In this document: positions 32,491 to 57,717 of the stretch, piece by piece | Numbering within the stretch: position 1 is the stretch's first letter | Layout of the letters: each line of letters starts with the position of its first letter | DNA from: a virus | Strand: one strand, 5' to 3' | IMG/VR virus record: IMGVR_UViG_3300031521_000015 | DNA: 64,000 nt | The notes under the pieces: model-generated | The model's input: the letters and a program-made list of their open reading frames with translations, nothing else | Database searches by the model: none | What the model was told of the DNA's origin: nothing | Made by a program: the position numbers and the translations under genes

Positions 32491-35400
32491 ATGCAATATG
32501 ATAACGACTTAAATTCATATATAATAATTAATAGAAGTAATGTTCAAAATGAAGCTTATGCAAAAATTGATATAGATTCTGTCAATAATTTAAATAGTAC
32601 AATTACAGTTAGATATAATGATGAATCAGTACAAGACGAAAATGTTTCATTATCAAGTACCTTAACTATTCCAATAAAGAACAAAATGTTTGGTACTGTA
32701 GATATAGTCAAAACACAAAAAATAACTCAAATTATACCTTGCTTAAAAGATGCATTCGTGAGATCAGACCAACCAGTTCTAAATTACGGAAAAGAAAAAG
32801 ATTTATTAGTTGGTTATTCATCTTCTTTTGATGGAATATTTAGAACATTCATGGACTTTAATTTACTTCGATTACAAAAAGGTTTAATAATAACAAAAGC
32901 AACAATAAAAGCAACTAGGATAAGTACTGATAATTTTATTCCTAACTTAGAAGTATACGAATGTTTAAATAGTTTTGATGAAAATGATATTACATGGGAT
33001 AACCAACCTCCAATGGGAACTCTACTTGAAACATTCCAAGGTGGAACTTCACTAGGTCAGAAATATATATATTGTGATGTTACAAATAGTATTATTGATT
33101 GGTACGAAGGAAATAGATTCCAAACAGGATTTGTTTTTAAATCTTCAGACGAAACTTATAATCAATATGGTAGAACTTATTCAAGAGAATCAAGTTTTAC
33201 TCCTATATTGGAAGTTGAGTATTTTAACCCTAATCCTCCTAGCTATGGGTCAGCAATATTAAATAGTAAAATAAGTGTAAAAATACCTGCAAAAAATGAA
33301 TTAAATTGTACTATAATAGTTCCTGAATATGATTTTAATAATGATTTAGATAGTACAATAACAGTTAGAAATAATAGTTATTTAGATTGTAAATTACAAG
33401 TATTAACAGACGCATTAAATAGTAAAATCAATGTTGCAACAGGAGTTAATTTAAATTCTATAATAAAAGTTAAAATAAATACTGCTAGAGATTTCAATTC
33501 ACAAGTTGCAGTATCCCAACCTAATATTAGTTGTAAAATAACTGTAGTTAATAATTATCAAATGCCTTGTATTATAAATGTTACACAAATTAAGGATTTA
33601 GATTGTAAGGTGAAAGTTAGAAGATATGATATTAGTGAACTAAATTCAAATATTAAAGTTACTAATATTTTAGACTTAGTTAGTAAACTTGCAGTAAGAC
33701 GTAATGAATATAAAGATTTAAACTCTAAAATAATAGTACGAAGAAAAGATGTAAGTGAACTGAATTGCACAATATCTACCACAAGATTTAGTGAATTATC
33801 ATCAAAGATAACAGTTAGAAGGTATAATTATAATGAGTTAAGTTCGATAATTAAAGTCAGAAGATACGACATTAATGAATTAAATAGTAAAATTTTAGTT
33901 ATGTTTACCAATGACTTAGATTCTACAATTAAAGTTAGAAGGTCTGAAGATAATGATTTAAATTCCATAATTAATGTAAGAAGATATGACGATGGTAGCA
34001 TTGATAGTACAATTTTAATTTCATTATTTGAAGAATTGGGTTGTAAGATTTTAGTTAGTAAGGGCGAAGTTGATTCTATAATAAAAGTAAGAAGATATTT
34101 AGATGATGATTTCAATGGAATAGTAAAAATATCTCCAACAAGTGAATTCTTAAGTAAAATAAAAGTTACCAATTATAAAGAATTAAATTCTAAAATATCT
34201 GTTAGAATACCTTCTGCAAAAGATTTATCAACTAAAATAACAGTAAGAGATATGTCTACAGTAGATTGTATCTTGAATGTCAGAAGATATGACAACAATG
34301 AATTCGATTCACAGATTACAGTTAGAAGAAATGATATAACTGATATCAATTCAAATGTATTAGTCAGAAGAAATGAAAATATTGATTTAAATTCAACTAT
34401 TCATGTAAGATTTGTCGATGGTAAAAACGATATCTCAAGTAAGATGTTTGTATACATTACAGATACTAATGATTTAGATTCTACTATCTTAGTAATTAAT
34501 GAAGGTACTGAGGATTTAAATTCTATAATCAAGACTAGACCTTCCAATAGAATGTTTGGTATTGTAGATATATTACCAGCTCCTAAAGTTAATTTGACAT
34601 TAAAGCCGGTACAAGATGCTTATACCAGAAGTCAATTACCTACATTCAACTATGGTAGCGAAATTGATATGTATGTTGGTAATAATAGTGGAGAATTATA
34701 TCGCTCATTCTTACAGTTTGATTTAAGTGGGATACCTACAACTAGGGTATTTACAAAGGCTATTTTAAAATTACATAGTAATACGTCTTATTATACAAGT
34801 GGTATTCAATTAGATGAAGTAAAAGATTCTTGGTATGAAAATGATATAACTTGGAATAATCAAGAAGATTCTTTAAGTACAATAAAAGCTGTTTCTAGCG
34901 TTAGTGGAAGTATTATAGAAATTGACTTAATGTATATAATTGATAATTGGTTCAATGGTAGTATGCTACAAAATGGATTTATAATTAAATCACTTGATGA
35001 GTCAATTCAACAAAGACTAAGGCTTTATTCTAGGGAAAGTGTTTATCCACCTACCTTAGAAATAGAGTATTTTGATACTACAGTAAAGAGTAATGTTTCT
35101 AATGATTTTTTAAGTAAAATATTCGTAATGAGTGTTGAAAATAAAGATTTAAGTTGTTCAATTACTGTACCTAATTATAATTTAGAAAGCGATTTAGATT
35201 CATCTTTGGTCGTAAATAATAATGGATACTTAGATTCTAAAATTACTGTTATTCGTGGAGATTTAGATTGTAAACTAGTTGTAAAAAGGAATGAAGAAAA
35301 TAATTTAGATTCCTTATTAAAAGTTAGATTAAATGAAATAAATGAATTATCAAGTACAATTATTGTAAATAATCCGTATATAAATTCTATCATAACAGTA

Positions 35401-36279
35401 AAACGTAATGAAATAGATAATATTGATAGTAATTTAATTGTCCGAAGAAATGAAATATTATCATTAGACTCTAAAGTTGTAGTAAGAAGAAATGAATACA
35501 AAGAACTTAATAGCAAAATCATAGTAAATAATCCTGATATAGCTAGTATAATTAAAGTTACACCTACAAGTGAGTTATATTCAAGTATTATAGTACGAAG
35601 AAATGACGTTTTAGATTTAAATAATAAATTAAGTGTAACTCAACGTAGCGATTTAAATTGTGTAATCAATGTTCTAACAAATGAATTAATAGGTTGTATA
35701 ATTAAAGTAAGAAACACTTGGGATTCAGAATTAGATTCTAAAATCATAGTAACTACTTATAATAATCTAGATTCATTAATAGAAGTAACCAATCACGCAA
35801 ACTTAAGTTCTACTATTAAAGTTAGAAGATATTCAGATATTGATCTTAATTCAAAAATCAATATAATAGCAAATGATAATTTAGATAGTAAGATTAATGT
35901 TATTAAACCATCTTATTTAAATTCAGTAATTAAAATAAGGAATACTAAAGAAATTGATTTAAATTCAAAAATTGATATTATATCAGTAGAAAATTTAGAT
36001 TGTATAATTAGAGTTGCTAAAGGAGATATTTCTTGTAAGATTAAAGTTAGAAGAAATGAATACAATGACTTAGATAATAAAGTAGAGATTACTCCTACTA
36101 ATGATTTAAATGGTATTATTTCAGTATCAAATATTTCAGAATTAAGTTGTAAAATAATAACTAGGACTCCTTATAATAATGATTTGAGTTCTAAAATAGA
36201 AGTTTTAGGAAGTTTATCTGATTTAGAATGCAAGATAGTTGTTGGAAATAAAATTATTGGATATGTGTTTATAATGTAA
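32491..36279 (+). CDS. Giant repeat protein with two DNRLRE/CBM96-like domains and dozens of 13-16-aa beta-strand repeats
   Basis: DAFVRS..P..NYG...FRTFMDFNL...ITW.NQP and DAYTRS..P..NYG...YRSFLQFDLS; repeats (N/S)(D/E)L(D/N)S.I.VRR. Confidence 0.75.
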   Translation: MQYDNDLNSYIIINRSNVQNEAYAKIDIDSVNNLNSTITVRYNDESVQDENVSLSSTLTIPIKNKMFGTVDIVKTQKITQIIPCLKDAFVRSDQPVLNYGKEKDLLVGYSSSFDGIFRTFMDFNLLRLQKGLIITKATIKATRISTDNFIPNLEVYECLNSFDENDITWDNQPPMGTLLETFQGGTSLGQKYIYCDVTNSIIDWYEGNRFQTGFVFKSSDETYNQYGRTYSRESSFTPILEVEYFNPNPPSYGSAILNSKISVKIPAKNELNCTIIVPEYDFNNDLDSTITVRNNSYLDCKLQVLTDALNSKINVATGVNLNSIIKVKINTARDFNSQVAVSQPNISCKITVVNNYQMPCIINVTQIKDLDCKVKVRRYDISELNSNIKVTNILDLVSKLAVRRNEYKDLNSKIIVRRKDVSELNCTISTTRFSELSSKITVRRYNYNELSSIIKVRRYDINELNSKILVMFTNDLDSTIKVRRSEDNDLNSIINVRRYDDGSIDSTILISLFEELGCKILVSKGEVDSIIKVRRYLDDDFNGIVKISPTSEFLSKIKVTNYKELNSKISVRIPSAKDLSTKITVRDMSTVDCILNVRRYDNNEFDSQITVRRNDITDINSNVLVRRNENIDLNSTIHVRFVDGKNDISSKMFVYITDTNDLDSTILVINEGTEDLNSIIKTRPSNRMFGIVDILPAPKVNLTLKPVQDAYTRSQLPTFNYGSEIDMYVGNNSGELYRSFLQFDLSGIPTTRVFTKAILKLHSNTSYYTSGIQLDEVKDSWYENDITWNNQEDSLSTIKAVSSVSGSIIEIDLMYIIDNWFNGSMLQNGFIIKSLDESIQQRLRLYSRESVYPPTLEIEYFDTTVKSNVSNDFLSKIFVMSVENKDLSCSITVPNYNLESDLDSSLVVNNNGYLDSKITVIRGDLDCKLVVKRNEENNLDSLLKVRLNEINELSSTIIVNNPYINSIITVKRNEIDNIDSNLIVRRNEILSLDSKVVVRRNEYKELNSKIIVNNPDIASIIKVTPTSELYSSIIVRRNDVLDLNNKLSVTQRSDLNCVINVLTNELIGCIIKVRNTWDSELDSKIIVTTYNNLDSLIEVTNHANLSSTIKVRRYSDIDLNSKINIIANDNLDSKINVIKPSYLNSVIKIRNTKEIDLNSKIDIISVENLDCIIRVAKGDISCKIKVRRNEYNDLDNKVEITPTNDLNGIISVSNISELSCKIITRTPYNNDLSSKIEVLGSLSDLECKIVVGNKIIGYVFIM

Positions 36280-36351: not shown

Positions 36352-36465
36352 TTAATCATTGAAAATTTTATTATCAATATTTCGGCTGACATGCCGTAAC
36401 TTATTAATTATACGACCTAGCATAAATAGAATCAAACAACTTATTGATAAACATATATATTCCAT
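36352..36465 (-). CDS. 37-aa small membrane peptide (not in ORF track)
   Basis: Extended -10 TGTTATAAT (36502-36510), RBS AAGGAG, MEYICLSISCLILFMLGRIINKLRHVSRNIDNKIFND. Confidence 0.55.
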   Translation of the reverse strand: MEYICLSISCLILFMLGRIINKLRHVSRNIDNKIFND

Positions 36466-36723
36466 TGCTTCTCCTTAGGATGATTATGTGGTTAATATAA
36501 TATTATAACATATATTTTTGATAAACACCACAGAACCATTCATTTTTATAAAATCGAAAAAGTTATTCTACTTGCAACTCTGCTTTTGAATGCCATTTAA
36601 ATTCAATTGTATTAAAGGTAAAAGAAAGTCTAAAAATATTGGCGTAATAGAATTAGAATTAATGATAATACTTTCATATTTATACTGGCCACAACATTAA
36701 GAATTAGGATTTTTGTTTTAAAT

Positions 36724-36765
36724 TCGATACATAACTAAGATTATCAGTCCAAAACATGGTATAAT
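36724..36765 (+). promoter_or_regulatory. Xer/dif-like 11-6-11 site next to the extended -10 promoter of the recombinase
   Basis: TCGATACATAA-CTAAGA-TTATCAGTCCA; TGGTATAAT at 36757-36765. Confidence 0.4.
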
Positions 36766-36785
36766 AGTTATGGAGGTATATAAAG

Positions 36786-37610
36786 ATGAATAATTTACAA
36801 ATGTTTAGAGAATACTTGGCCAAGCAAGAAAAAAGTAATAAGACTATTGAGGCCTATATGAGAGATATAAATCAATTCATGGCCTATGCAAAAGAAAATA
36901 AGATATTAGAATTTCACAATGATACAATGAAGGCCTACAAAGAATATTTATTATATGAAAGATTCTTATCTCCTACTTCGGCCAATAGAAAACTTGTGGC
37001 CATACATCAATTCTTTGCTTTTATTGAAGTGTCGGCCACAACTACAAAAGTAAAAATACAATCACAGAATTTCTTAGAGAATGTAATTAATAAGGCTGAT
37101 ATAGAAAATATAATTGATATTGCTAAGGCCAAGAAGGATTATAGAACGTTGGCCATAGTAAAAACATTGGAATTGACTGGCCTAAGAATAAGTGAAATGC
37201 TACAACTTCAAATAAAAGACATACATAGTAATACAATACAAATTGTTGGCAAGGGAAATAAGATTAGATCTGTATTTATTCCCAAGGCCTTGAATGATGT
37301 TTGGTTAAATTATTGTAGATTGGGCCGAATGAATAAAGGTTGTGATTACCTGTTTGTAGGAACTCGTGGCCATATGACTAGAAGTGGTGTAGATAAAGTT
37401 TTAAAGAAATATGGTAAGTTGGCCAATGTAAAAAAGGAGAAAAATCATGCACATTCATTTCGCCATCAATATGCAAAACGGTTAATAGATTCTGGTTTGG
37501 CCATTGATATTGTAGCCGATTTATGTGGCCATGGTAGTATTGAAACAACTCGGATTTATACCAGAAAGAGTAAAGAAGAATTATTAAATGTTATAGAAGA
37601 TTTGGATTAG
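36786..37610 (+). CDS. XerD-like tyrosine recombinase, GGCC-saturated gene
   Basis: Catalytic set intact: TGLRISE, GKGNK, HSFRH, LCGH, TTRIY. Confidence 0.92.
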   Translation: MNNLQMFREYLAKQEKSNKTIEAYMRDINQFMAYAKENKILEFHNDTMKAYKEYLLYERFLSPTSANRKLVAIHQFFAFIEVSATTTKVKIQSQNFLENVINKADIENIIDIAKAKKDYRTLAIVKTLELTGLRISEMLQLQIKDIHSNTIQIVGKGNKIRSVFIPKALNDVWLNYCRLGRMNKGCDYLFVGTRGHMTRSGVDKVLKKYGKLANVKKEKNHAHSFRHQYAKRLIDSGLAIDIVADLCGHGSIETTRIYTRKSKEELLNVIEDLD

Positions 37611-37721
37611 GCCAAAGATATTAAAATTAAATATTAGATTATTTTTAGAGTTTGTATGAATTGTACAAGCTCTTTTTTGTTGCGTGGAATTATAAAAATT
37701 GAATTAGAAAGGAATGGGGAT

Positions 37722-38258
37722 ATGGGCAAATATTCAAGTAAAAAAGTTGATGATCCTAAATGGGGAATTTTCGACAGCACAACAGAATGGAAATATTGGA
37801 ATGAACTATTAAAGCAACAAGAGAAAGGAGAGATAAACAATTTAGATAGACAAAAACCTTTCTTATTAGTGCCAGCCTTTAAAGATTCCCACTACGAAAA
37901 TAAAGGAATTCGTAAAATGGAATATATTTCTGATATGAGCTTTATTAGAGATGGTCAACTAGTCGTTGTTGATGTAAAAGGTAGTCTTTATAATATTACA
38001 AATGAAAGTAAGTGCAAGATAAAGATGTTTAAATACTTAAATCAAGATACACGTTTTGAATTAATTGTTACATATGATAGCAGATGGTTTAACTTAGAAG
38101 ATAAAATAGAAAAGAAACAGTACACTGAATTAGTTAAACAAAAGAAAAGTGAAAAGAAAGCTAGGAAAGAAGTTAGGGACAAATTAAAAGCTGAGAAAGA
38201 TAAGAATGTTAGTAAAAAAAAAGACAAAATAAAACAATTAAGAAAGGACTTGATATAA
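37722..38258 (+). CDS. DUF1064-like PD-(D/E)xK nuclease-fold protein
   Basis: KYSSKKV...FDSTTE..Y...RQKPFLL...YISD..F...VVDVKG; likely start ATG 37722. Confidence 0.75.
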   Translation: MGKYSSKKVDDPKWGIFDSTTEWKYWNELLKQQEKGEINNLDRQKPFLLVPAFKDSHYENKGIRKMEYISDMSFIRDGQLVVVDVKGSLYNITNESKCKIKMFKYLNQDTRFELIVTYDSRWFNLEDKIEKKQYTELVKQKKSEKKARKEVRDKLKAEKDKNVSKKKDKIKQLRKDLI

Positions 38259-38259
38259 T

Positions 38260-39228
38260 ATGGCAAAAGAAAAAAGAAAACATGTTCAATATACAACTCC
38301 AAAATTGATAGAACAAATAAATCCACAAAATAAAGAACTTTGGAGGAAATATCTTAATGGGAAAAGACAGTTAGCTGAGTCCTCTAAGAATTCATATACT
38401 TCAGATATAAACCAATTCTTTGTTTTTATATTAAAAAATTATGATAATAAATACATATTTGATTTTGAAACTGAGGAAATGGCAGATGTTGTTGAAGATT
38501 TTCTTGCACTATGTCAAAGCGTATTTGAAAATAAAGATAGACGTATGCAACGTAGACTGTCTAGTATCTCATCATTATATCTATATTATAAAAAGAAAAG
38601 AAAAATCAAAGAAAATGTAGTAGATTTATTAGAAAGACCTAAAGCTCAAAAAGGAGTTTATGAAATAAAAAGAGTATTTCTAACACAAGAACAAGTAGAA
38701 ACGATAAGAGAAGGATTAAAAGAAAGAAATAATACTCAATTAACATTAGTATTTGAATTAGGGTTATTTACTATGGCTAGAGTTAATGCTATATCTACTA
38801 TTAGATTAGACCAGATTGACTTAGAAAATAGGGTTATAAGAGATGTAATCGAAAAAGAAGGATATTCTATTACGTTCAATCTCAATGATAGATGTATAGA
38901 ATTAATTAAACAATGGTTGAATGAAAGAAAAGAAAAAGGAATTGAATGTGAGCATTTATTTGTTACTAATTATAATGGGTGGAGACAAGCTTCAGTTGGA
39001 CAATTTAAAAGTACATGGATAAAACAAATAGGGGCTATTATCAATGAACCTGAATTATCCATGCATGATTTAAGACATAGTGGCAGTGACCTTAGATATA
39101 AAGCAGGTATGAGTCTAGAAGCAGTCTCGAAGGCGTTATCCCATAGATCAACGGGTGTAACAAAAGATTTTTATTTGCAAGAAGATACCGAATCTTTAAA
39201 ACAAGAAATGCTAAAGTTTGATATTTAA
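38260..39228 (+). CDS. Tyrosine recombinase/integrase
   Basis: TMARVNA, EKEG, MHDLRH, LSH, TKDFY. Confidence 0.88.
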   Translation: MAKEKRKHVQYTTPKLIEQINPQNKELWRKYLNGKRQLAESSKNSYTSDINQFFVFILKNYDNKYIFDFETEEMADVVEDFLALCQSVFENKDRRMQRRLSSISSLYLYYKKKRKIKENVVDLLERPKAQKGVYEIKRVFLTQEQVETIREGLKERNNTQLTLVFELGLFTMARVNAISTIRLDQIDLENRVIRDVIEKEGYSITFNLNDRCIELIKQWLNERKEKGIECEHLFVTNYNGWRQASVGQFKSTWIKQIGAIINEPELSMHDLRHSGSDLRYKAGMSLEAVSKALSHRSTGVTKDFYLQEDTESLKQEMLKFDI

Positions 39229-41101: not shown

Positions 41102-41584
41102 TTACTCCTTTCTCTTATAATTGTAAAAAGCAAATGTATTGTGCATTGTAGATAATCCATCTATCTCCCACTCATCTTTATTAAAATTAAAGAATGTATC
41201 AGCTTCAAATTCTCCAAATCCGATAGTTAAATAAATCTTATTGCAATAAGGCAATAATTGGCTGTATATCTCTCCTCCACCTATAATGAACACTTCTTCA
41301 TTTGAATCTCTATACTCTTCTAGAACCATATCAATATTCATATAGCATATGTCTAATTCCTCATCTAGTCCCATTTTAGAACGACTTAACACTATATTTG
41401 TTCTATTAGGTAATGCACCATTCGGCAAACTTTCAAATGTTTTTCTGCCCATAATTACTTTGTGATTCGTAGTTAATTCTTTAAATCTTCTCATATCTTC
41501 TTTAACGTGAAACAATAATTCATTGTTATTTCCAATTCCACCGTTAAGATCAATAGCTACTATAATAGATAACATTCTATACAC
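41102..41584 (-). CDS. folA: Dihydrofolate reductase
   Basis: [55 protein letters not shown]. Confidence 0.95.
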
Positions 41585-41966
41585 TCACTTTCATTTTAAT
41601 AATTCCCATATTTTTATAATCTTCTAAAGCAATACCGTCTATGGTGAAGTCATAAAAATTAGTTATGTCAGGATTTAATTTTAGTTTAGGGGTTATAGAA
41701 TAAATATCTTGTAATTTACTATATTCTTCGTGCGTTATATCTTTATAATATTCATTATAAGTATCATAATTATATACACAACTTTGTAACCTCTCATATC
41801 TTTCTAATTGTTCTCTCATGCCTTCAATTTGATTTTCATAGATATGAGCATTATTTATAATATGAGTAAGTTGCCCTACTTGTAATCCAGTAGCTTGTGC
41901 AATCATATGAGTTAAAACTGCATATTGCGTTGTATTAAAGGGAACGCCCAATGGAATGTCTCCTGA
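41577..41966 (-). CDS. thyA: Thymidylate synthase exon 2
   Basis: [14 protein letters not shown]...AHIYENQ. Confidence 0.93.
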
Positions 41967-43161
41967 CTCTATTTTCAATAAGGTTCGTTAAACCTTACCC
42001 GTTTCAACTCCATTAATTGAAACTGCTATATATTACTATATAGAAAAGACTATATCACAATCCTATTAGTATTTCAGATAGGATTCCCTGCTTTTCCCGT
42101 CACCTTGCATTATGCAACCTCCAATAACTTGAGGGGTACTCTACTCGCTTCTATTTAATAACCTTTTATATTTATCAAACATGCTTTCGATAGTCGTTAG
42201 ACATTTAATTATTATTTGTGTTTTTATATGTAATAATAATTAGGAAAGTTTTTTGATTTTATTCTATTTAATATTGTTGTAGGTGTCACCCCTAGTTGTC
42301 TAGAAGCTTCGGTTAGACTTTCGTATTCATCTTCTTCTATTTTTACTTTTTTCATGTTAGGAGGTTTCTTTCCTAATTGTTTTTCTCTAATTTTATTTTT
42401 CGATTCCTCAGAGTGATGTTTCCCATAAAAACTATTTAATTCTCCAATTTTTAATTTTGCTTTATCAGATAAGTTATTTTTAATTTCGACAGCCTTTTCT
42501 TCTCCAAAGAACTCATAATAAGTTTTTCCTTTTATGTCTCGATAAGCACCTGTGTTTTTTTGAGAAATTTTATTTTTCGATTTTTCAGAATGATGTCTGC
42601 CATACATTCCATTATCTTCTCCTTTTCTTCCGTATGTATTGCTTAGTTCTTCTTTTGACATTTTAGACATATTTTCTTTTCTAGTTTCTAATCCTTTTTC
42701 TATAATTAGTTTCTTATTGGGATGATACGATAACAAATCACCACCATCTTTAGCCTTTTTAGATATGTTATATAACATATCTTTATAATTATCTATATAA
42801 TATTGTTCAATTTCTATACTTTCAATTTCTGTATTACAAATTTTATAGATTTCAAATTCAAAATTATTTTCACCATATTTATTCCACGCTCTTTGCAAGT
42901 GCTTATTATGATGTTTATTTTTTCTTAGTGCTGACTTATGAGAATTAAATCTTTGATTTATATTAACTGAATGACCTACATAAAATTTATTATTAAGTAA
43001 ATTTTTTATAAAATACGTTCCTATCATTATTTATTCACCTCCTTTTTATTTTAATAACACAAATAATAATATTTAGTACGGGATTGTCTTATAAATATAA
43101 GAGTTTCCCCGTTTAACAGGGTTTTCGATAGGTATTACTACCTAAAGACGCTCTTTTACAA
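41967..43161 (-). mobile_element. Group I intron (1195 nt) in thyA
   Basis: 5' exon ends in U (CAACGU) and pairs with IGS GAGCGU; P AAACGGGGAAAC, Q AAUCCCGUAC, R AACGACUA (P7 strand at 42191-42195), S GAUAUAGUC (42048-42056); terminal G at 41967; splicing restores Q-R-S-G-D. Confidence 0.93.
42224..43027 (-). CDS. Intron-encoded GIY-YIG homing endonuclease with NUMOD3/NUMOD1 (I-TevI/I-BmoI-like)
   Basis: GTYFIKN...YVGHS...R...H; YG(R/K)HHSE.SK.KI repeats; YESLTEASRQLG. Confidence 0.92.
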   Translation of the reverse strand: MIGTYFIKNLLNNKFYVGHSVNINQRFNSHKSALRKNKHHNKHLQRAWNKYGENNFEFEIYKICNTEIESIEIEQYYIDNYKDMLYNISKKAKDGGDLLSYHPNKKLIIEKGLETRKENMSKMSKEELSNTYGRKGEDNGMYGRHHSEKSKNKISQKNTGAYRDIKGKTYYEFFGEEKAVEIKNNLSDKAKLKIGELNSFYGKHHSEESKNKIREKQLGKKPPNMKKVKIEEDEYESLTEASRQLGVTPTTILNRIKSKNFPNYYYI

Positions 43162-43653
43162 ACGTTGTATAAGCATACAATTCAGTTTACCATCTGTCAC
43201 ATCCCAAATAGTTTGATAACAACAAGGTTGTAATTGCATTTCTGGTAAATCTTCAATATTCCATAAAGAAATAATCATTCTTCTATCTTGTGGATTAGTT
43301 TTTAAAGTTTCAATAAGTTTATCAAGTTGTTTATATTTTGCTATTTGATACCCATAAGCTTTTCCTATAGTATTATTCTTATCAACCCATTCATCCCAAA
43401 TATGAACATTTTGATTTTGTAATAATGTAACATCATTTGACTGTTGTTGCCATATCCATAACATTTCTTTTGTAGCTGTTTTAAAAGCCACCTGTTTAGT
43501 TTTTAATATAGGAAACTCCTTTTGTAAATCCACTTGTATTATTTGATGTGGTAGTTTATATGTTGGCATACCTGTTCTATTATTATCGTAGTATCCATAT
43601 TCTATTATATTTTTAACTATATTCATATATTGAACTTCATAATTACTTATCAT
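43162..43653 (-). CDS. thyA: Thymidylate synthase exon 1
   Basis: [43 protein letters not shown]. Confidence 0.93.
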
Positions 43654-44696: not shown

Positions 44697-45995
44697 TTAA
44701 TTATAGCTTATTTGTTTTCCTTCTTCTCTAATACACACAAAGGTTGGAAATTGTAAACTTATTAACTTGGTTTTCTTATCCATAGTTTCTTCTTTATACT
44801 TAACCTCTAAAATTCTACCTATGTATTTATCACGGTTTGTCCAATATTCTTGACGTTGTTCATCTGAATAGCCTGAACCAACAGAAACTTAATTACCTTT
44901 ATAATCTATTATAAAAGAACCTAAAACTCCTTTATATTTTCCTTCTCCTTCTGCATAATTAATTATTTTACAATCAGCAGTCATAAACTTTTTAATCTTT
45001 AATATGCCATTGTGACGTTTATTTTTCCATTCACAATCCTTTATAGCCATACAACCTTCTTTATCTTGTGATATTGCTAAATCTAAATATTCATCTACCA
45101 CAGATATGTCTGTTCCTTCATAATATACAATTGGTATATCCAAATTAGCTAGTCCCTTTTCAACTGCATCTGCTTTTAATTGTCTTAATTGTTTTAGCCT
45201 ATCTTTATATTTCAATTTGCTTTTTCCTGCAAAGAATTCATCTATAGGTAATAAATCAAATACAATTAAATCTATCATAGTTTTATCTTCCACATCTGAA
45301 TTTACGATTGAAGTTGTTAATCTAAAGTTCTCACCATTTGAAATATTGTCTATATTCTTTCTAACTAATTCTCCATTGAAATAGTATCCTTCAAAACTTA
45401 GTTGTTCTAATTGTTTAATTATATGATCTAAGTTTGATATCTCTTTACCTTGCCTACTTAACATTATTCCATTTACGTATGAACAATTTATACCATTAAG
45501 TTTTTCTTCTAAACAAATCCAAGTGCCTTTCTTTAATGGATATTTATGAATCGGATATGCTTGTTGGATATTAAATTCTGGTATTAATCCTTTGATAGCC
45601 TTATTTATGCTTTTCCCTGATATATTACATCTTAAATCCTTGGTAAGTACCTTAATCCATAGTTCTTGTTCTTCGTAATCACAATTTGATAAAAATTCTA
45701 AAACTTCTTTTCGTAGGCTATCATTGATATTTGATTTTGAAAGTGTATCAAGCATTTCAAATCCATTAATCCATAAATGTCCTACATAGAATGTTGAATT
45801 TTCTAAATAGCTCTTTAGTAATTCTCTAAGTTTCTTCTCGCTGAATCCAAACTGAAGACTATCATTGTATGTATAATATAATATTTTAGTAAAGTCTTCA
45901 TTATCTTTATTCTGTTGTATTATTGATATTTTATCATTTGAACTACTTGTACTTTCTAATTTATTTATAATTCTTATTACTTTTTCCATTTTCAT
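44697..45995 (-). pseudogene. ATP-dependent DNA ligase with in-frame TAA at 44889-44891
   Basis: EEKLNG motif I, FNGEL, VFDLL, EGCM, LKIKK; reading continues in frame VSVGSGYSDEQR...EVKY...SLQFPTFVCIR to TAA at 44697. Confidence 0.85.
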
Positions 45996-56850: not shown

Positions 56851-57717
56851 CTATATCTTGATTAATTTTAGTACCTTCTCAATTTCATTAGCTATTTCAA
56901 CTATATTTGCAGTTTGTTCTTGAATTCCTGCTGATATTTCTTCCATTCCAGCAGATGTATCACTCATGCTAATATTAATTTCTTCTATATTAGCAATTCT
57001 AGTTATACTACTTTGTTTTAATTTTATGCTATTTTCTTTTCCAGTTTCAGTCTTTGTAAGTATAGTAGTAACCATAACTTGAAGTTCTTTTATTATTTGG
57101 CTTATCGTAGAACTAAAACCTTTTGATTGTTCTGCTAACTTTTTAATTTCATCTGCTACAACTGAGAACCCTTTGCCATATTCCCCAGCTCTGGCAGATT
57201 CTATACTTGCATTTAATGATAAAAGATTTGTTTGGTTTGCAATTTCTTTAATAGCTTCTGTTATTTTAGAAATATCTTGCATTTTAATATTTAAATCATT
57301 CGCATTATCATAAATATTTTCAATATCGCTACTAAATTTATCCATTATTCCACCATTGTTTTTAGCACTTTCGTATGCACTATTAACTCTTTCGGCTATG
57401 TTAAATATAGTTGCGTTGATCTCTTCTACTGTAGCCGTAAACTCCTCTGATATACTTGCTGAGGAATCAATGGCATTACTAATTGATTCAGTATCTTTTA
57501 ATAGTCTTAAGGTTATTTCTTGTACTGATTTCTTATATTCTTCAAATAGCTTATTCTTGGTTTCTAACTCTGTATTTAGTTCGTTATTTTGTAATTCTAA
57601 TTTATTTATTTTGTTCTCATTTTCCTTTTTGATTATTTCTAATTTTTCATTCATTAGTTTTTCCATTGATTCTCTTGCTTCTTTTATACCTTTTTCATTT
57701 TTAAATAATTTCATCAT
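56851..57717 (-). CDS. Soluble methyl-accepting chemotaxis protein (signalling domain only)
   Basis: [40 protein letters not shown]; no transmembrane or sensor domain. Confidence 0.9.

What the first reader, a model, noticed from the sequence alone, without database searches (positions are those of the whole stretch)
36687..37613. Tyrosine recombinase gene saturated with GGCC sites in an otherwise GGCC-free genome segment
Seen: 18 GGCC sites start at 36687, 36818, 36851, 36881, 36932, 36980, 36998, 37034, 37127, 37151, 37179, 37286, 37323, 37368, 37421, 37499, 37527 and 37610. Sixteen lie inside the CDS, one overlaps the stop codon and one is upstream. My manual scan found none in the other ~63 kb, and base composition predicts under one in 927 bp. 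The sites are built by synonymous choice. Of 14 Ala codons whose preceding codon can end in G, 12 are NNG-GCC. All 5 Ala codons after Y/F/I/H, where GGCC is impossible, use GCA/GCT. Four of 5 Gly-(L/R/H) pairs are GGC-CNN. The neighbouring integrase has none. Established: GGCC is the HaeIII/BsuRI-type restriction and m5C-methylation target, and phages normally purge such sites. Inference: the gene body carries a DNA-level signal. Options are a restriction tripwire confining cleavage to one locus, a methylation-state switch on recombinase expression, a decoy or sponge for GGCC-binding proteins, an m5C-deamination mutable locus, or an array of binding sites for the recombinase complex.
Basis: partly seen in the sequence, partly recalled or inferred. 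Interest (0 to 1): 0.93.

Follow-up and report, generated by a model that had tools for sequence, protein, structure and literature searches.

The report
Recombinase gene cassette saturated with GGCC
A small, horizontally exchanged recombinase gene in an uncultured Clostridium-type phage carries the restriction-enzyme word GGCC at nearly every position its protein allows, even changing amino acids to fit more, while the rest of the 130-kb genome has erased that word; I found no described precedent, and what reads the word is unknown.

Summary
All 18 GGCC sites of the window lie at 36687-37610. The 130,085-bp virus record has 19 in total, against about 45 expected.

Sixteen sites lie inside the 274-codon Xer-like recombinase CDS, and only 19 are possible for this protein. 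Resampling codons by genome usage gives a mean of 0.29 and a maximum of 3.

- **One clade only.** The trait is confined to one well-supported clade: three alleles at 85-100% nt identity, with 14-18 sites each. About 30 orthologues at 72% aa identity or less have 0-1 GGCC and no other enriched 4-6-mer.
- **The protein was changed.** It has 18-19 Ala, against 9-13 in the nearest relatives. Within the clade, sites were gained after the split, gained convergently, and shifted.
- **A mobile unit.** The unit is a ~1.1-kb cassette: a dif-like site in the promoter, the gene and a terminator. It is shared by phages whose flanking genes are far apart.
- **No reader found.** No GGCC methylase or nuclease was found in the record, which is 74% complete.
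- **What is excluded.** Codon, translation and RNA-structure explanations fail.

My best guess, with low confidence, is a DNA-level array read additively by a GGCC-specific modification or binding enzyme that gates this gene.

The scan noted this same stretch once more in another window. It has no equivalent on other DNA.

The parts
36570..37690 (+). Exchangeable recombinase cassette (approximate limits): upstream element, dif-like site and promoter, CDS, terminator
   Evidence: The window and L002 are 74-92% identical in most 50-bp bins from ~36600 to ~37700; one bin, 36650-36699, is at 44%. Outside these limits identity falls to the AT-rich background of 0.4-0.7. Flanking genes of the two phages are 25-57% aa identical or unmatched.
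36687..37613 (.). Array of 18 GGCC words, starting at 36687, 36818, 36851, 36881, 36932, 36980, 36998, 37034, 37127, 37151, 37179, 37286, 37323, 37368, 37421, 37499, 37527 and 37610
   Evidence: These are 18 of the genome's 19 sites. Fifteen of the 18 are WGGCCW, including TGGCCA x8 and AGGCCT x3.
36687..36690 (.). Non-coding GGCC, 99 bp upstream of the ATG and upstream of the predicted promoter
   Evidence: L002 has its own upstream GGCC at -81, in a non-homologous position. L158 has none.
36723..36750 (+). Candidate dif/lox-like core site, TTCGATACATAA-CTAAGA-TTATCAGTCC, overlapping the -35 region
   Evidence: It is conserved in GGCC-rich and GGCC-free relatives (alignment) and occurs once in the record. 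Its role is inferred, not tested.
36757..36765 (+). Predicted extended -10 promoter element, TGgTATAAT; the Shine-Dalgarno GGAGG is at 36772-36776
   Evidence: Read from the sequence and conserved in all aligned relatives. The transcription start was not mapped.
36786..37610 (+). Xer/Cre-type tyrosine recombinase CDS, 274 aa, with 16 internal GGCC
   Evidence: Pfam and NCBIfam hits. R134, K159, H223, R226, H249 and Y258 are invariant. Against the 87% allele there are 35 aa differences and 73 synonymous codon differences.
37608..37613 (+). Stop codon TAG followed by GCC, forming the last GGCC
   Evidence: It is present in the window and L158. It reads TAGGTC in L002.
37647..37683 (+). Terminator-like hairpin and T-run that closes the cassette
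   Evidence: It is conserved in L002 and L158.
37722..38258 (+). DUF1064 / Holliday-junction-resolvase-like gene downstream; the ORF runs from 37656 and the likely start is M23
   Evidence: Pfam DUF1064 at 2.6e-16 and phrog_190 at 4.6e-23. In L002 the same position holds an unrelated RusA-like resolvase.
38260..39228 (+). Second Xer-like tyrosine recombinase, 322 aa, with no GGCC

Best explanation
The feature is a positively selected, DNA-level array of the palindrome GGCC. It is built into a self-contained recombinase cassette of about 1.1 kb, which is exchanged between SPbeta/c-st-like Clostridium-type phages or phage-plasmids. The carrier genomes have purged GGCC, so the word marks only this gene.

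Most likely mechanism (inferred, not shown): a GGCC-specific DNA enzyme of the HaeIII/BsuRI restriction-modification class reads the sites. It is probably host-encoded, and may be a methyltransferase or a non-cutting binder. Each site adds a small increment of methylation or occupancy across the promoter-proximal DNA and the gene body. Together these set how much Xer/Cre-like recombinase is made, so the gene is gated by the modification state of the DNA.

Shown here: the enrichment, its confinement to the cassette, its single origin, the continuing gains, the altered protein, and the mobility of the cassette.

For: 1. The enrichment is extreme. There are 16 of 19 possible sites in the CDS, against 0.29 expected. 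GGCC is the only enriched core word.
2. It is not a codon effect. GCC is used only where a preceding G is possible, the GGC-CNN frame is also used, and so is the stop codon.
3. The protein was altered. It has 18-19 Ala and 19 possible sites, against 9-13 Ala and 7-12 possible sites in the five sister-clade relatives. Lineage-specific changes to Ala occur at residues 12, 33, 50, 66, 84, 115, 168 and 239. V133L and R196H create GGC-CNN.
4. It arose once. The clade has 100/100 support and a long stem of 0.22.
5. Selection continued after the split.
   - Site 500: AAA GTT became AAG GCC.
   - Site 341: AAC, then ACC, then GCC.
   - Site 335: convergent gain, as GTG GCC in L158 and TTG GCC in L002.
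   - Site 713 shifted to 708 in L158.
   - The G was kept through TTG/GTG at site 365 and TTG/CTG at site 635.
6. Two arguments favour DNA over RNA. The word belongs to the class of G+C palindromes that the genome purges. Two alleles carry independent GGCC sites upstream of the conserved predicted promoter.
7. Adjacent non-coding DNA stays nearly free of GGCC while amino acids were changed inside the gene. So the sites seem to be needed within this transcription unit.
8. Gains continue near saturation, which argues for an additive effect.
9. Methylation-site control of recombinase or transposase genes has precedent: the P1 cre promoter and IS10, both controlled by Dam (own knowledge).
Against: - No GGCC-specific methylase, endonuclease or binding protein was found among 120 ORFs of the record. 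The only methyltransferase is a Dam-like/DUF4942 enzyme that also occurs across GGCC-free relatives. The record is only 74% complete and the host is unknown.
- Eighteen unmethylated sites should be lethal in any host with a GGCC endonuclease. That is the presumed reason the rest of the genome lacks the word. The model therefore needs hosts with a methylase but no effective cutting, or phage DNA that arrives already modified.
- Strong transcriptional effects of gene-body cytosine methylation are not established in bacteria.
- Synonymous change in GGCC codons is not measurably slower than in other codons: 5/34 vs 51/218, 9/31 vs 64/202, and 9/31 vs 60/205. Selection per site is therefore weak or acts on the number of sites.
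- No methylation or expression data could be obtained.
Confidence: 0.33

Rival explanations
1. Programmed cleavage target (tripwire or jettisonable gene). A GGCC endonuclease cuts only here and shreds the recombinase unit. The outermost sites bracket the promoter and the stop codon, so blunt re-joining would delete exactly this gene. Alternatively, the break serves as a signal.
For: - The word is a classic blunt-cutter target (HaeIII class; own knowledge).
- The first and last sites lie upstream of the promoter and on the stop codon.
- The phage encodes a DNA-ligase-like protein at 44889-45995.
- Many sites raise the chance of at least one cut when methylation competes with cleavage.
Against: - A double-strand break in the middle of the genome is normally fatal to the phage.
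- A handful of sites would already give near-certain cleavage, so continued gains at 14-17 of 19 sites are not explained.
- Sites could have been placed more cheaply in the 500-bp intergenic DNA.
- No benefit to the phage or to the cassette is apparent.
Confidence: 0.15
2. Accessory array for recombination. The GGCC words flank the dif-like core site and are bound or cut by a partner of the recombination reaction. That partner could be an accessory protein imposing a topological filter, as at cer or psi. It could also be a Holliday-junction resolvase that prefers G/C tetranucleotides.
For: - The candidate dif-like site lies inside the array, with one site on its left and 17 on its right.
- A junction-resolvase gene follows the cassette in both backbones, although the two resolvases belong to unrelated families.
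- The RecU consensus (G/T)G^C(A/C) and the RusA preference for CC are compatible with GGCC (own knowledge).
Against: - GGCC-free relatives have the same gene order and the same site without any array.
- The alternative RecU words are abundant: TGCA occurs 442 times in the genome.
- A 900-bp array of a 4-bp word with irregular spacing of 18-131 bp is unlike known accessory sequences.
- The resolvases differ between carriers of the same cassette.
Confidence: 0.12
3. RNA-level signal. GGCC in the mRNA is the target of a sequence-specific endoribonuclease or RNA-binding protein, as proposed for MazF-site-rich transcripts. The recombinase message would then be selectively destroyed or sequestered.
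For: - Seventeen of the 18 sites lie within the predicted transcript, from the promoter to the terminator.
- The enrichment follows the transcription unit and not the surrounding DNA.
- An additive effect is natural for RNA decay.
Against: - The word is a palindrome of exactly the class purged as DNA, which would be an unlikely coincidence for an RNA motif.
- Two alleles have independent sites upstream of the predicted promoter.
- The mRNA is not unusually structured: z = -1.2, against -2.2 for a GGCC-free orthologue.
- There is no Rfam match.
Confidence: 0.1
4. No function. The sites are a by-product of a mutational bias (very-short-patch-type repair that writes GGCC), or of residence in a donor genome where GGCC is favoured, followed by recent import.
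For: - The cassette is clearly exchanged between backbones, so its composition need not reflect its present carrier.
- GGCC codons change at about the same synonymous rate as other codons.
Against: - Many sites needed transversions and two or three coordinated changes, including amino-acid replacements such as I to A, E to A and D/K/N to A.
- Outside the sites, third-position composition is ordinary: 81% A/T against 84% in the genome.
- All known carriers are GGCC-free phages.
- Gains occurred after the alleles diverged.
Confidence: 0.05
5. Translational attenuation by rare codons (GCC, GGC, and NNG codons).
For: All codons involved are rare in this genome: GCC 5.7%, GGC 6%, TTG 11% and GTG 8%.
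Against: - None of the 5 Ala codons after Y, F, I or H is GCC, whereas 12 of the 14 Ala codons that can follow a G-ending codon are preceded by G and read GCC (site 728 is GTA GCC).
- Two reading frames and non-coding positions are used.
Confidence: 0.02

Closest known systems
Restriction-site (short palindrome) avoidance in phage genomes
   Same: The same class of word is involved, a 4-bp G+C palindrome and Type II target. The carrier genome shows textbook avoidance of GGCC, GCGC, CGCG and CCGG.
   Different: Inside one gene the sign is reversed: saturation in place of purging. [quoted passage not shown]
Methylation-site clusters that control DNA transactions: P1 pac (seven GATC-containing hexamers inside pacA), the P1 cre promoter, the IS10 transposase promoter, oriC (own knowledge)
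   Same: A 4-bp methylase target is concentrated at one locus. It is partly embedded in coding DNA and is linked to a recombinase, transposase or packaging function.
   Different: Those clusters are short, with 2-11 sites in 250 bp or less, and have a known cognate Dam methylase. They act at a promoter, origin or cut site. Here 18 sites fill a whole 0.9-kb gene, amino acids were changed to add sites, and no cognate enzyme is known.
Stoperators of Cluster A mycobacteriophages (own knowledge; the comparison was prompted by note e1-1911427)
   Same: Many copies of one word lie inside transcribed DNA and could silence by blocking elongation, with an additive effect.
   Different: Stoperators are 13-14 bp, asymmetric and oriented, and are spread over the whole genome. 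They are read by the phage repressor. Here the word is a 4-bp palindrome confined to one gene.
Xer/dif and Cre/lox multimer-resolution or cyclisation modules of plasmids and plasmid-prophages
   Same: The protein is a Xer/Cre-type tyrosine recombinase with all catalytic residues. A single 11-6-11-like site lies in its own promoter. Relatives are found on Clostridium plasmids and on phage c-st.
   Different: No known Xer or Cre gene carries an array of a restriction word. The site and the reaction have not been tested.
Toxin-site-rich transcripts (MazF-type endoribonuclease targets; own knowledge)
   Same: A short word is over-represented in one transcript through codon choice.
   Different: The reported enrichments are modest and non-palindromic. 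Here the word is a DNA-type palindrome, near saturation, with non-coding copies upstream of the promoter.

Membership tests
Xer/Cre-type tyrosine recombinase (protein) | Phage_integrase catalytic domain plus an N-terminal SAM-like core-binding domain | tested here: met
   PF00589 at 1.1e-31, PF02899 at 3.4e-10 and PF13495 at 2.3e-8. XerA, XerC and XerD models match at 1e-44 to 1e-48 but fall below the equivalog cut-offs.
Xer/Cre-type tyrosine recombinase (protein) | Catalytic R-K-H-R-H/W-Y residues | tested here: met
   R134, K159, H223, R226, H249 and Y258 are invariant in 22 relatives, including this protein.
Xer/Cre-type tyrosine recombinase (protein) | A cognate core site with two inverted arms around a 6-8-bp spacer | tested here: inconclusive
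   A conserved TTCGATACATAA-CTAAGA-TTATCAGTCC block lies in the promoter and occurs once in the record. Arm symmetry is only partial, and no activity data exist.
Restriction-site avoidance (carrier genome) | Palindromic Type II words far below composition expectation, while non-palindromic words of the same composition are not | tested here: met
   GGCC has 1 site outside the gene, GCGC 0, CGCG 1 and CCGG 3, against 44.6 expected for each. GGGC has 41 and GCCC 46.
Methylation-controlled locus (P1 pac / Dam-regulated recombinase promoter type) | A local cluster of a methyltransferase target word | tested here: met
   18 GGCC in 927 bp, against 1 in the other 129 kb.
Methylation-controlled locus (P1 pac / Dam-regulated recombinase promoter type) | A cognate methyltransferase encoded by the element or its host | tested here: not met
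   There is no PF00145 or PF01555 match. The only methyltransferase is Dam-like/DUF4942, found family-wide and of unknown specificity. The record is 74% complete and the host was not available.
Methylation-controlled locus (P1 pac / Dam-regulated recombinase promoter type) | Function changes with the methylation state | not testable with these tools
   This needs methylome and expression data.
Type II R-M system acting on GGCC (HaeIII/BsuRI/NgoPII class) | Endonuclease or methylase genes in the element | tested here: not met
   The RE_HaeIII search found nothing, but its control also found nothing, so that search is uninformative. The PADLOC scan of 120 ORFs gave only one weak MTase_II hit and no restriction endonuclease.
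Mobile gene cassette (moron-like, exchanged by recombination) | A self-contained unit with its own promoter and terminator, found in different genomic contexts with much higher identity than its flanks | tested here: met
   The cassette is 85% nt identical between the window and L002, while flanking proteins are 25-57% identical or unmatched. The limits fall at ~36570 and ~37690, just past the terminator.
Endoribonuclease-target-rich transcript | The motif is confined to the transcribed strand and region | tested here: inconclusive
   The word is palindromic, so strand cannot be judged. One site per allele, in two alleles, lies upstream of the predicted but unmapped start.

The most novel reading that the evidence does not exclude
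Phage genomes that have erased a restriction word free it for use as a private address. A mobile recombinase cassette has filled itself with that word. A GGCC-specific modification enzyme or binder, normally part of host defence, then acts on this one gene only and sets recombinase output according to the modification state of the DNA. That would be a new kind of epigenetic coupling between restriction-modification and phage or plasmid recombination, written into codons and even into the protein sequence.
Probability: 0.3. Interest if true: 0.92.

Novelty: categorically new. Interest (0 to 1): 0.86.

Why it matters
Restriction words in phage DNA are known as things to be lost. This is a clear natural case of the opposite. 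A restriction word is driven to near saturation in one gene, at the cost of amino-acid changes, inside genomes that otherwise forbid it.

Some factor must therefore read GGCC on this gene with an additive pay-off. That factor is a candidate for an undescribed link between host modification systems and the control of a phage or plasmid recombinase.

The system is small (1.1 kb) and has natural GGCC-free orthologues to serve as controls. It can be tested directly by recoding, so an open question becomes experimentally tractable: can short modification words in gene bodies carry regulatory information in bacteria and their viruses?

It also shows that scans for local reversals of word avoidance can find functional DNA signals hidden in coding sequence.

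Tried and rejected
- **Base composition or foreign origin.** Rejected. The gene is 30% G+C, and away from the sites its third positions are ordinary.
- **Rare-codon attenuation.** Rejected because codon choice depends on context.
- **mRNA structure from self-pairing GGCC.** Not supported. There is no Rfam family.
- **A longer motif.** There is none. Flanks are W-rich only, as expected in AT-rich DNA.
- **Another enriched word in orthologues.** None was found among 4-, 5- or 6-mers.
- **DUF1064 neighbour as a lineage-specific reader.** Rejected. It is present next to GGCC-free alleles and is replaced by a RusA-like protein next to a GGCC-rich allele.
- **Base hypermodification.** The two thymidylate-synthase hits are the two halves of one thyA gene, split by a GIY-YIG endonuclease gene.
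- **Invertible-segment (shufflon) role for the recombinase next to the fibre gene.** No convincing inverted repeats were found.
- **The 517-aa methyltransferase as the GGCC writer.** It has no sequence match to a solved structure, and it occurs family-wide, including in GGCC-free relatives.
- **More GGCC-rich alleles in IMG/VR, sought with two exact 28-29-mers.** None were found.
- **Contigs for the exact window protein.** They are withheld.
- **One burst followed by neutral decay.** Judged unlikely because gains, a convergent gain and a site shift occurred after the split. Per-site constraint is nevertheless not measurable.
Full report
**Observation**

The window is part of a 130,085-bp IMG/VR virus record that CheckV rates 74% complete. 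That record has 19 GGCC against 44.6 expected. Eighteen are here and one is at genome position 93579.

The genome purges G+C palindromes specifically. GCGC occurs 0 times, CGCG once, CCGG three times and GGCC once outside the gene. Non-palindromic words of the same composition are at expectation: GGGC 41, GCCC 46.

**The gene**

The CDS at 36786-37610 (+) encodes a 274-aa Xer/Cre-type tyrosine recombinase. Its catalytic R134, K159, H223, R226, H249 and Y258 are invariant among 22 relatives.

It lies downstream of a 1262-aa gene that is probably a tail fibre; only a CBM96 domain and internal repeats support that reading. It lies upstream of a DUF1064 Holliday-junction-resolvase-like gene and a second Xer-like recombinase.

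The genome looks like an SPbeta/c-st-type Clostridium phage or phage-plasmid. Homologues of the recombinase sit on 100-250-kb viral contigs, on C. tetani and C. beijerinckii plasmids, and in C. botulinum phage c-st.

**Is it more than chance?**

Sixteen sites lie in the CDS.
- Resampling synonymous codons by genome usage gives a mean of 0.29 and a maximum of 3 in 20,000 trials.
- Permuting the gene's own synonymous codons gives a mean of 4.7 and a maximum of 12.
- The theoretical maximum for this protein is 19.

Twelve of 14 NNG-GCC opportunities and four of five GGC-CNN opportunities are used. Ala after Y, F, I or H is never GCC. The stop codon is the rare TAG, followed by GCC.

Against the codon-usage null, GGCC is the only enriched core word (z = 29). 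Away from the sites, third-position composition is ordinary. This excludes base composition, general codon bias and rare-codon attenuation.

**Phylogenetic distribution**

Four kinds of sequence carry the trait:
- the window allele, with 18 sites;
- near-identical copies from two other assemblies (L156, L157), with 18 sites;
- a 90%-nt allele (L158), with 18 sites;
- an 85%-nt allele (L002, L003, L004), with 14-15 sites.

In every one of these contigs GGCC occurs nowhere outside the gene region. About 30 orthologues at 72% aa identity or less have 0-1 GGCC in the gene and no enriched 4-, 5- or 6-mer of any kind.

The GGCC-rich alleles form one clade with 100/100 support. It sits on a long stem (0.22) and is nested among GGCC-free relatives.

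**The protein was bent to the word**

GGCC-rich proteins have 17-19 Ala and allow 19 sites. The five sister-clade relatives (P0003, P0004, P0005, P0007, P0008) have 9-13 Ala and allow 7-12.

At residues 12, 33, 50, 66, 84, 115, 168 and 239 the clade has Ala where those relatives have I, D/K/N, E, V, V, I/N, V/S and K/S. V133L (Val or Met in relatives) and R196H create GGC-CNN.

The gene remains under purifying selection. Between the window and L002 there are 35 aa differences against 73 synonymous codon differences.

**Dynamics inside the clade**

- Ten CDS sites are shared by all three alleles. The union of all sites has 20 positions.
- Site 500 was gained after the split. L002 and the outgroup P0003 (L154) read AAA GTT/GTA (K-V); the other two outgroups read K-S. 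The window and L158 read AAG GCC (K-A).
- Site 341 shows a stepwise path: AAC (Asn) in two outgroups, ACC (Thr) in L002, and GCC (Ala) in the other two alleles.
- Site 335 was gained convergently, as GTG GCC in L158 and TTG GCC in L002. The window keeps the outgroup-like ATT GCT.
- In L158, site 713 was lost (CTA GCC) and the adjacent site 708 was gained (GGC CTA).
- The critical G survives an amino-acid change at site 365 (TTG/GTG) and a synonymous change at site 635 (TTG/CTG).
- One loss is seen in the window at site 308 (GCC became GCT).

Synonymous change in GGCC codons is not significantly slower than elsewhere. Selection therefore seems to act on the number of sites and not on each site. 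This points to an additive benefit.

**The unit is a mobile cassette**

The window and L002 share 74-92% identity in most 50-bp bins from about 36600 to about 37700. One bin, 36650-36699, is at 44%. The shared stretch runs from an upstream element through the promoter and CDS to the terminator hairpin at 37647-37673. Beyond these limits similarity falls to background.

The flanking genes of the two phages are very different. The second recombinase is 25% identical, DHFR 57%, the two thyA exons 91% and 69%, and most other genes have no match.

L158 has yet another upstream sequence. The cassette has therefore been exchanged among diverged phage backbones.

In both backbones the next gene is a junction resolvase, but of unrelated families: DUF1064/phrog_190 in one and RusA-like in the other.

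**Promoter and candidate site**

A block reading TTCGATACATAA-CTAAGA-TTATCAGTCC (36723-36750) lies just upstream of an extended -10 element, TGgTATAAT (36757-36765). It is conserved in GGCC-rich and GGCC-free relatives and occurs once in the record.

It resembles a dif/lox core. An earlier scan note on a related phage recombinase made the same suggestion. This is inference only.

The upstream GGCC of the window (-99) and that of L002 (-81) are at non-homologous positions, and both lie upstream of this block. Two independent non-coding gains in genomes that otherwise lack the word are hard to ascribe to chance. Unless a further upstream promoter exists, they are also hard to ascribe to an RNA-level function.

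**Search for a reader**

- No C5 or N4/N6 methylase family match was found.
- No restriction endonuclease appeared in a PADLOC scan of 120 ORFs.
- Pfam scans of the early regions found no base-modification genes.
- The only methyltransferase is a 517-aa Dam-like/DUF4942 protein. It has no solved relative by sequence and is conserved across the whole phage family, including GGCC-free relatives.
- The RE_HaeIII search was uninformative because its control also found nothing.
- The record is incomplete and the host is unknown.

**Interpretation**

Three points are firm.
- A nucleotide word is under positive selection that is additive or based on site number.
- The selection is confined to one exchangeable transcription unit.
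- The word is of the same class the carrier genomes purge.

DNA-level reading is favoured for two reasons: the word is a purged palindrome, and there are non-coding sites upstream of the promoter. The mRNA is not unusually structured.

Adjacent non-coding DNA stays almost GGCC-free while amino acids were changed inside the gene. The sites therefore seem to be needed within the gene itself. That fits control of this gene, or its destruction, better than a mere locus marker.

Continued gains near saturation fit an additive effect such as methylation load, occupancy or roadblock. They fit a cleavage tripwire less well, because a few sites would saturate it.

I therefore rank the explanations as follows:
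1. A methylation or occupancy array read by a GGCC-specific R-M-class enzyme: about one in three.
2. Programmed cleavage.
3. A recombination-accessory or junction-resolution array.
4. An RNA-level target.
5. A non-functional by-product.

The main unresolved paradox applies to all DNA-level readings. Eighteen unmodified sites should be lethal in hosts that cut GGCC. Recent arrival of the cassette in each backbone would reconcile the clean backbones with the loaded cassette.

**Comparison with the known**

[quoted passage not shown] Three full-text literature searches found no report of a gene enriched for a restriction word.

The nearest analogies are P1 pac, the Dam-regulated recombinase and transposase promoters, stoperators, and MazF-site-rich transcripts. 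Each shares one aspect, but none shares the combination seen here.

Within this scan, the same stretch was noted once more from another window. No equivalent was recorded on other DNA.

Noticed in passing
window 36723-36750: A dif/lox-like 11-6-11 block overlaps the -35 region of the recombinase promoter. It is conserved in all relatives and occurs once in the record. This suggests an autoregulated Cre/lox- or Xer/dif-like resolution or cyclisation module.
   Followed up: partly
window 41577-43653 (-): The thymidylate synthase gene is split into two exons, 43156-43653 and 41577-41978. Between them lies an I-TevI-like GIY-YIG/NUMOD3 homing endonuclease gene at 42224-43027. The layout resembles the T4 td group I intron. 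DHFR lies next to it at 41102-41584.
   Followed up: partly
window 36352-36465 (-): A 37-aa ORF, MEYICLSISCLILFMLGRIINKLRHVSRNIDNKIFND, has a hydrophobic N-terminal half and a basic tail. It lies in the 500-bp gap between the fibre gene and the cassette. It could be a type I toxin-like or holin-like peptide.
   Followed up: no
L159:970-2220 (genome 970-2220, outside the window): A 416-aa protein carries RRXRR (1.6e-52) plus HNH domains, which is the domain pair of IscB-type RNA-guided nucleases. Earlier scan notes describe structured leader RNAs in front of this genome's free-standing endonuclease genes.
   Followed up: no
window 56851-57717 (-): A 288-aa phage protein has a methyl-accepting chemotaxis protein signalling domain (5.5e-32). 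This is unusual cargo for a phage.
   Followed up: no
window 32491-36279 (+): A 1262-aa protein, probably a tail fibre, has CBM96 domains and at least 15 diverged copies of a repeat with 42-nt (14-aa) register.
   Followed up: no
L158:76-140: Upstream of the 90% allele lies a CG-rich stretch of about 65 nt (CGACCGTTCGTCGG...CGACGAGAGCGAACGAAAGAACGACGAG). The surrounding genome type is otherwise depleted of CpG. It has no counterpart in the window.
   Followed up: no
whole record G000: Beyond the four G+C palindromes, several other words are strongly under-represented: GATC (89 vs 319 expected), TCGA (86 vs 319), ACGT (124 vs 319) and GCGG/CCGC (6 each vs 41-48). TGCA is over-represented (442 vs 319).
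   Followed up: no
L002:7037-7609 and window 37722-38258: Unrelated Holliday-junction resolvase genes, RusA-like in L002 and DUF1064 in the window, occupy the same position directly downstream of the same cassette in two diverged phages.
   Followed up: partly
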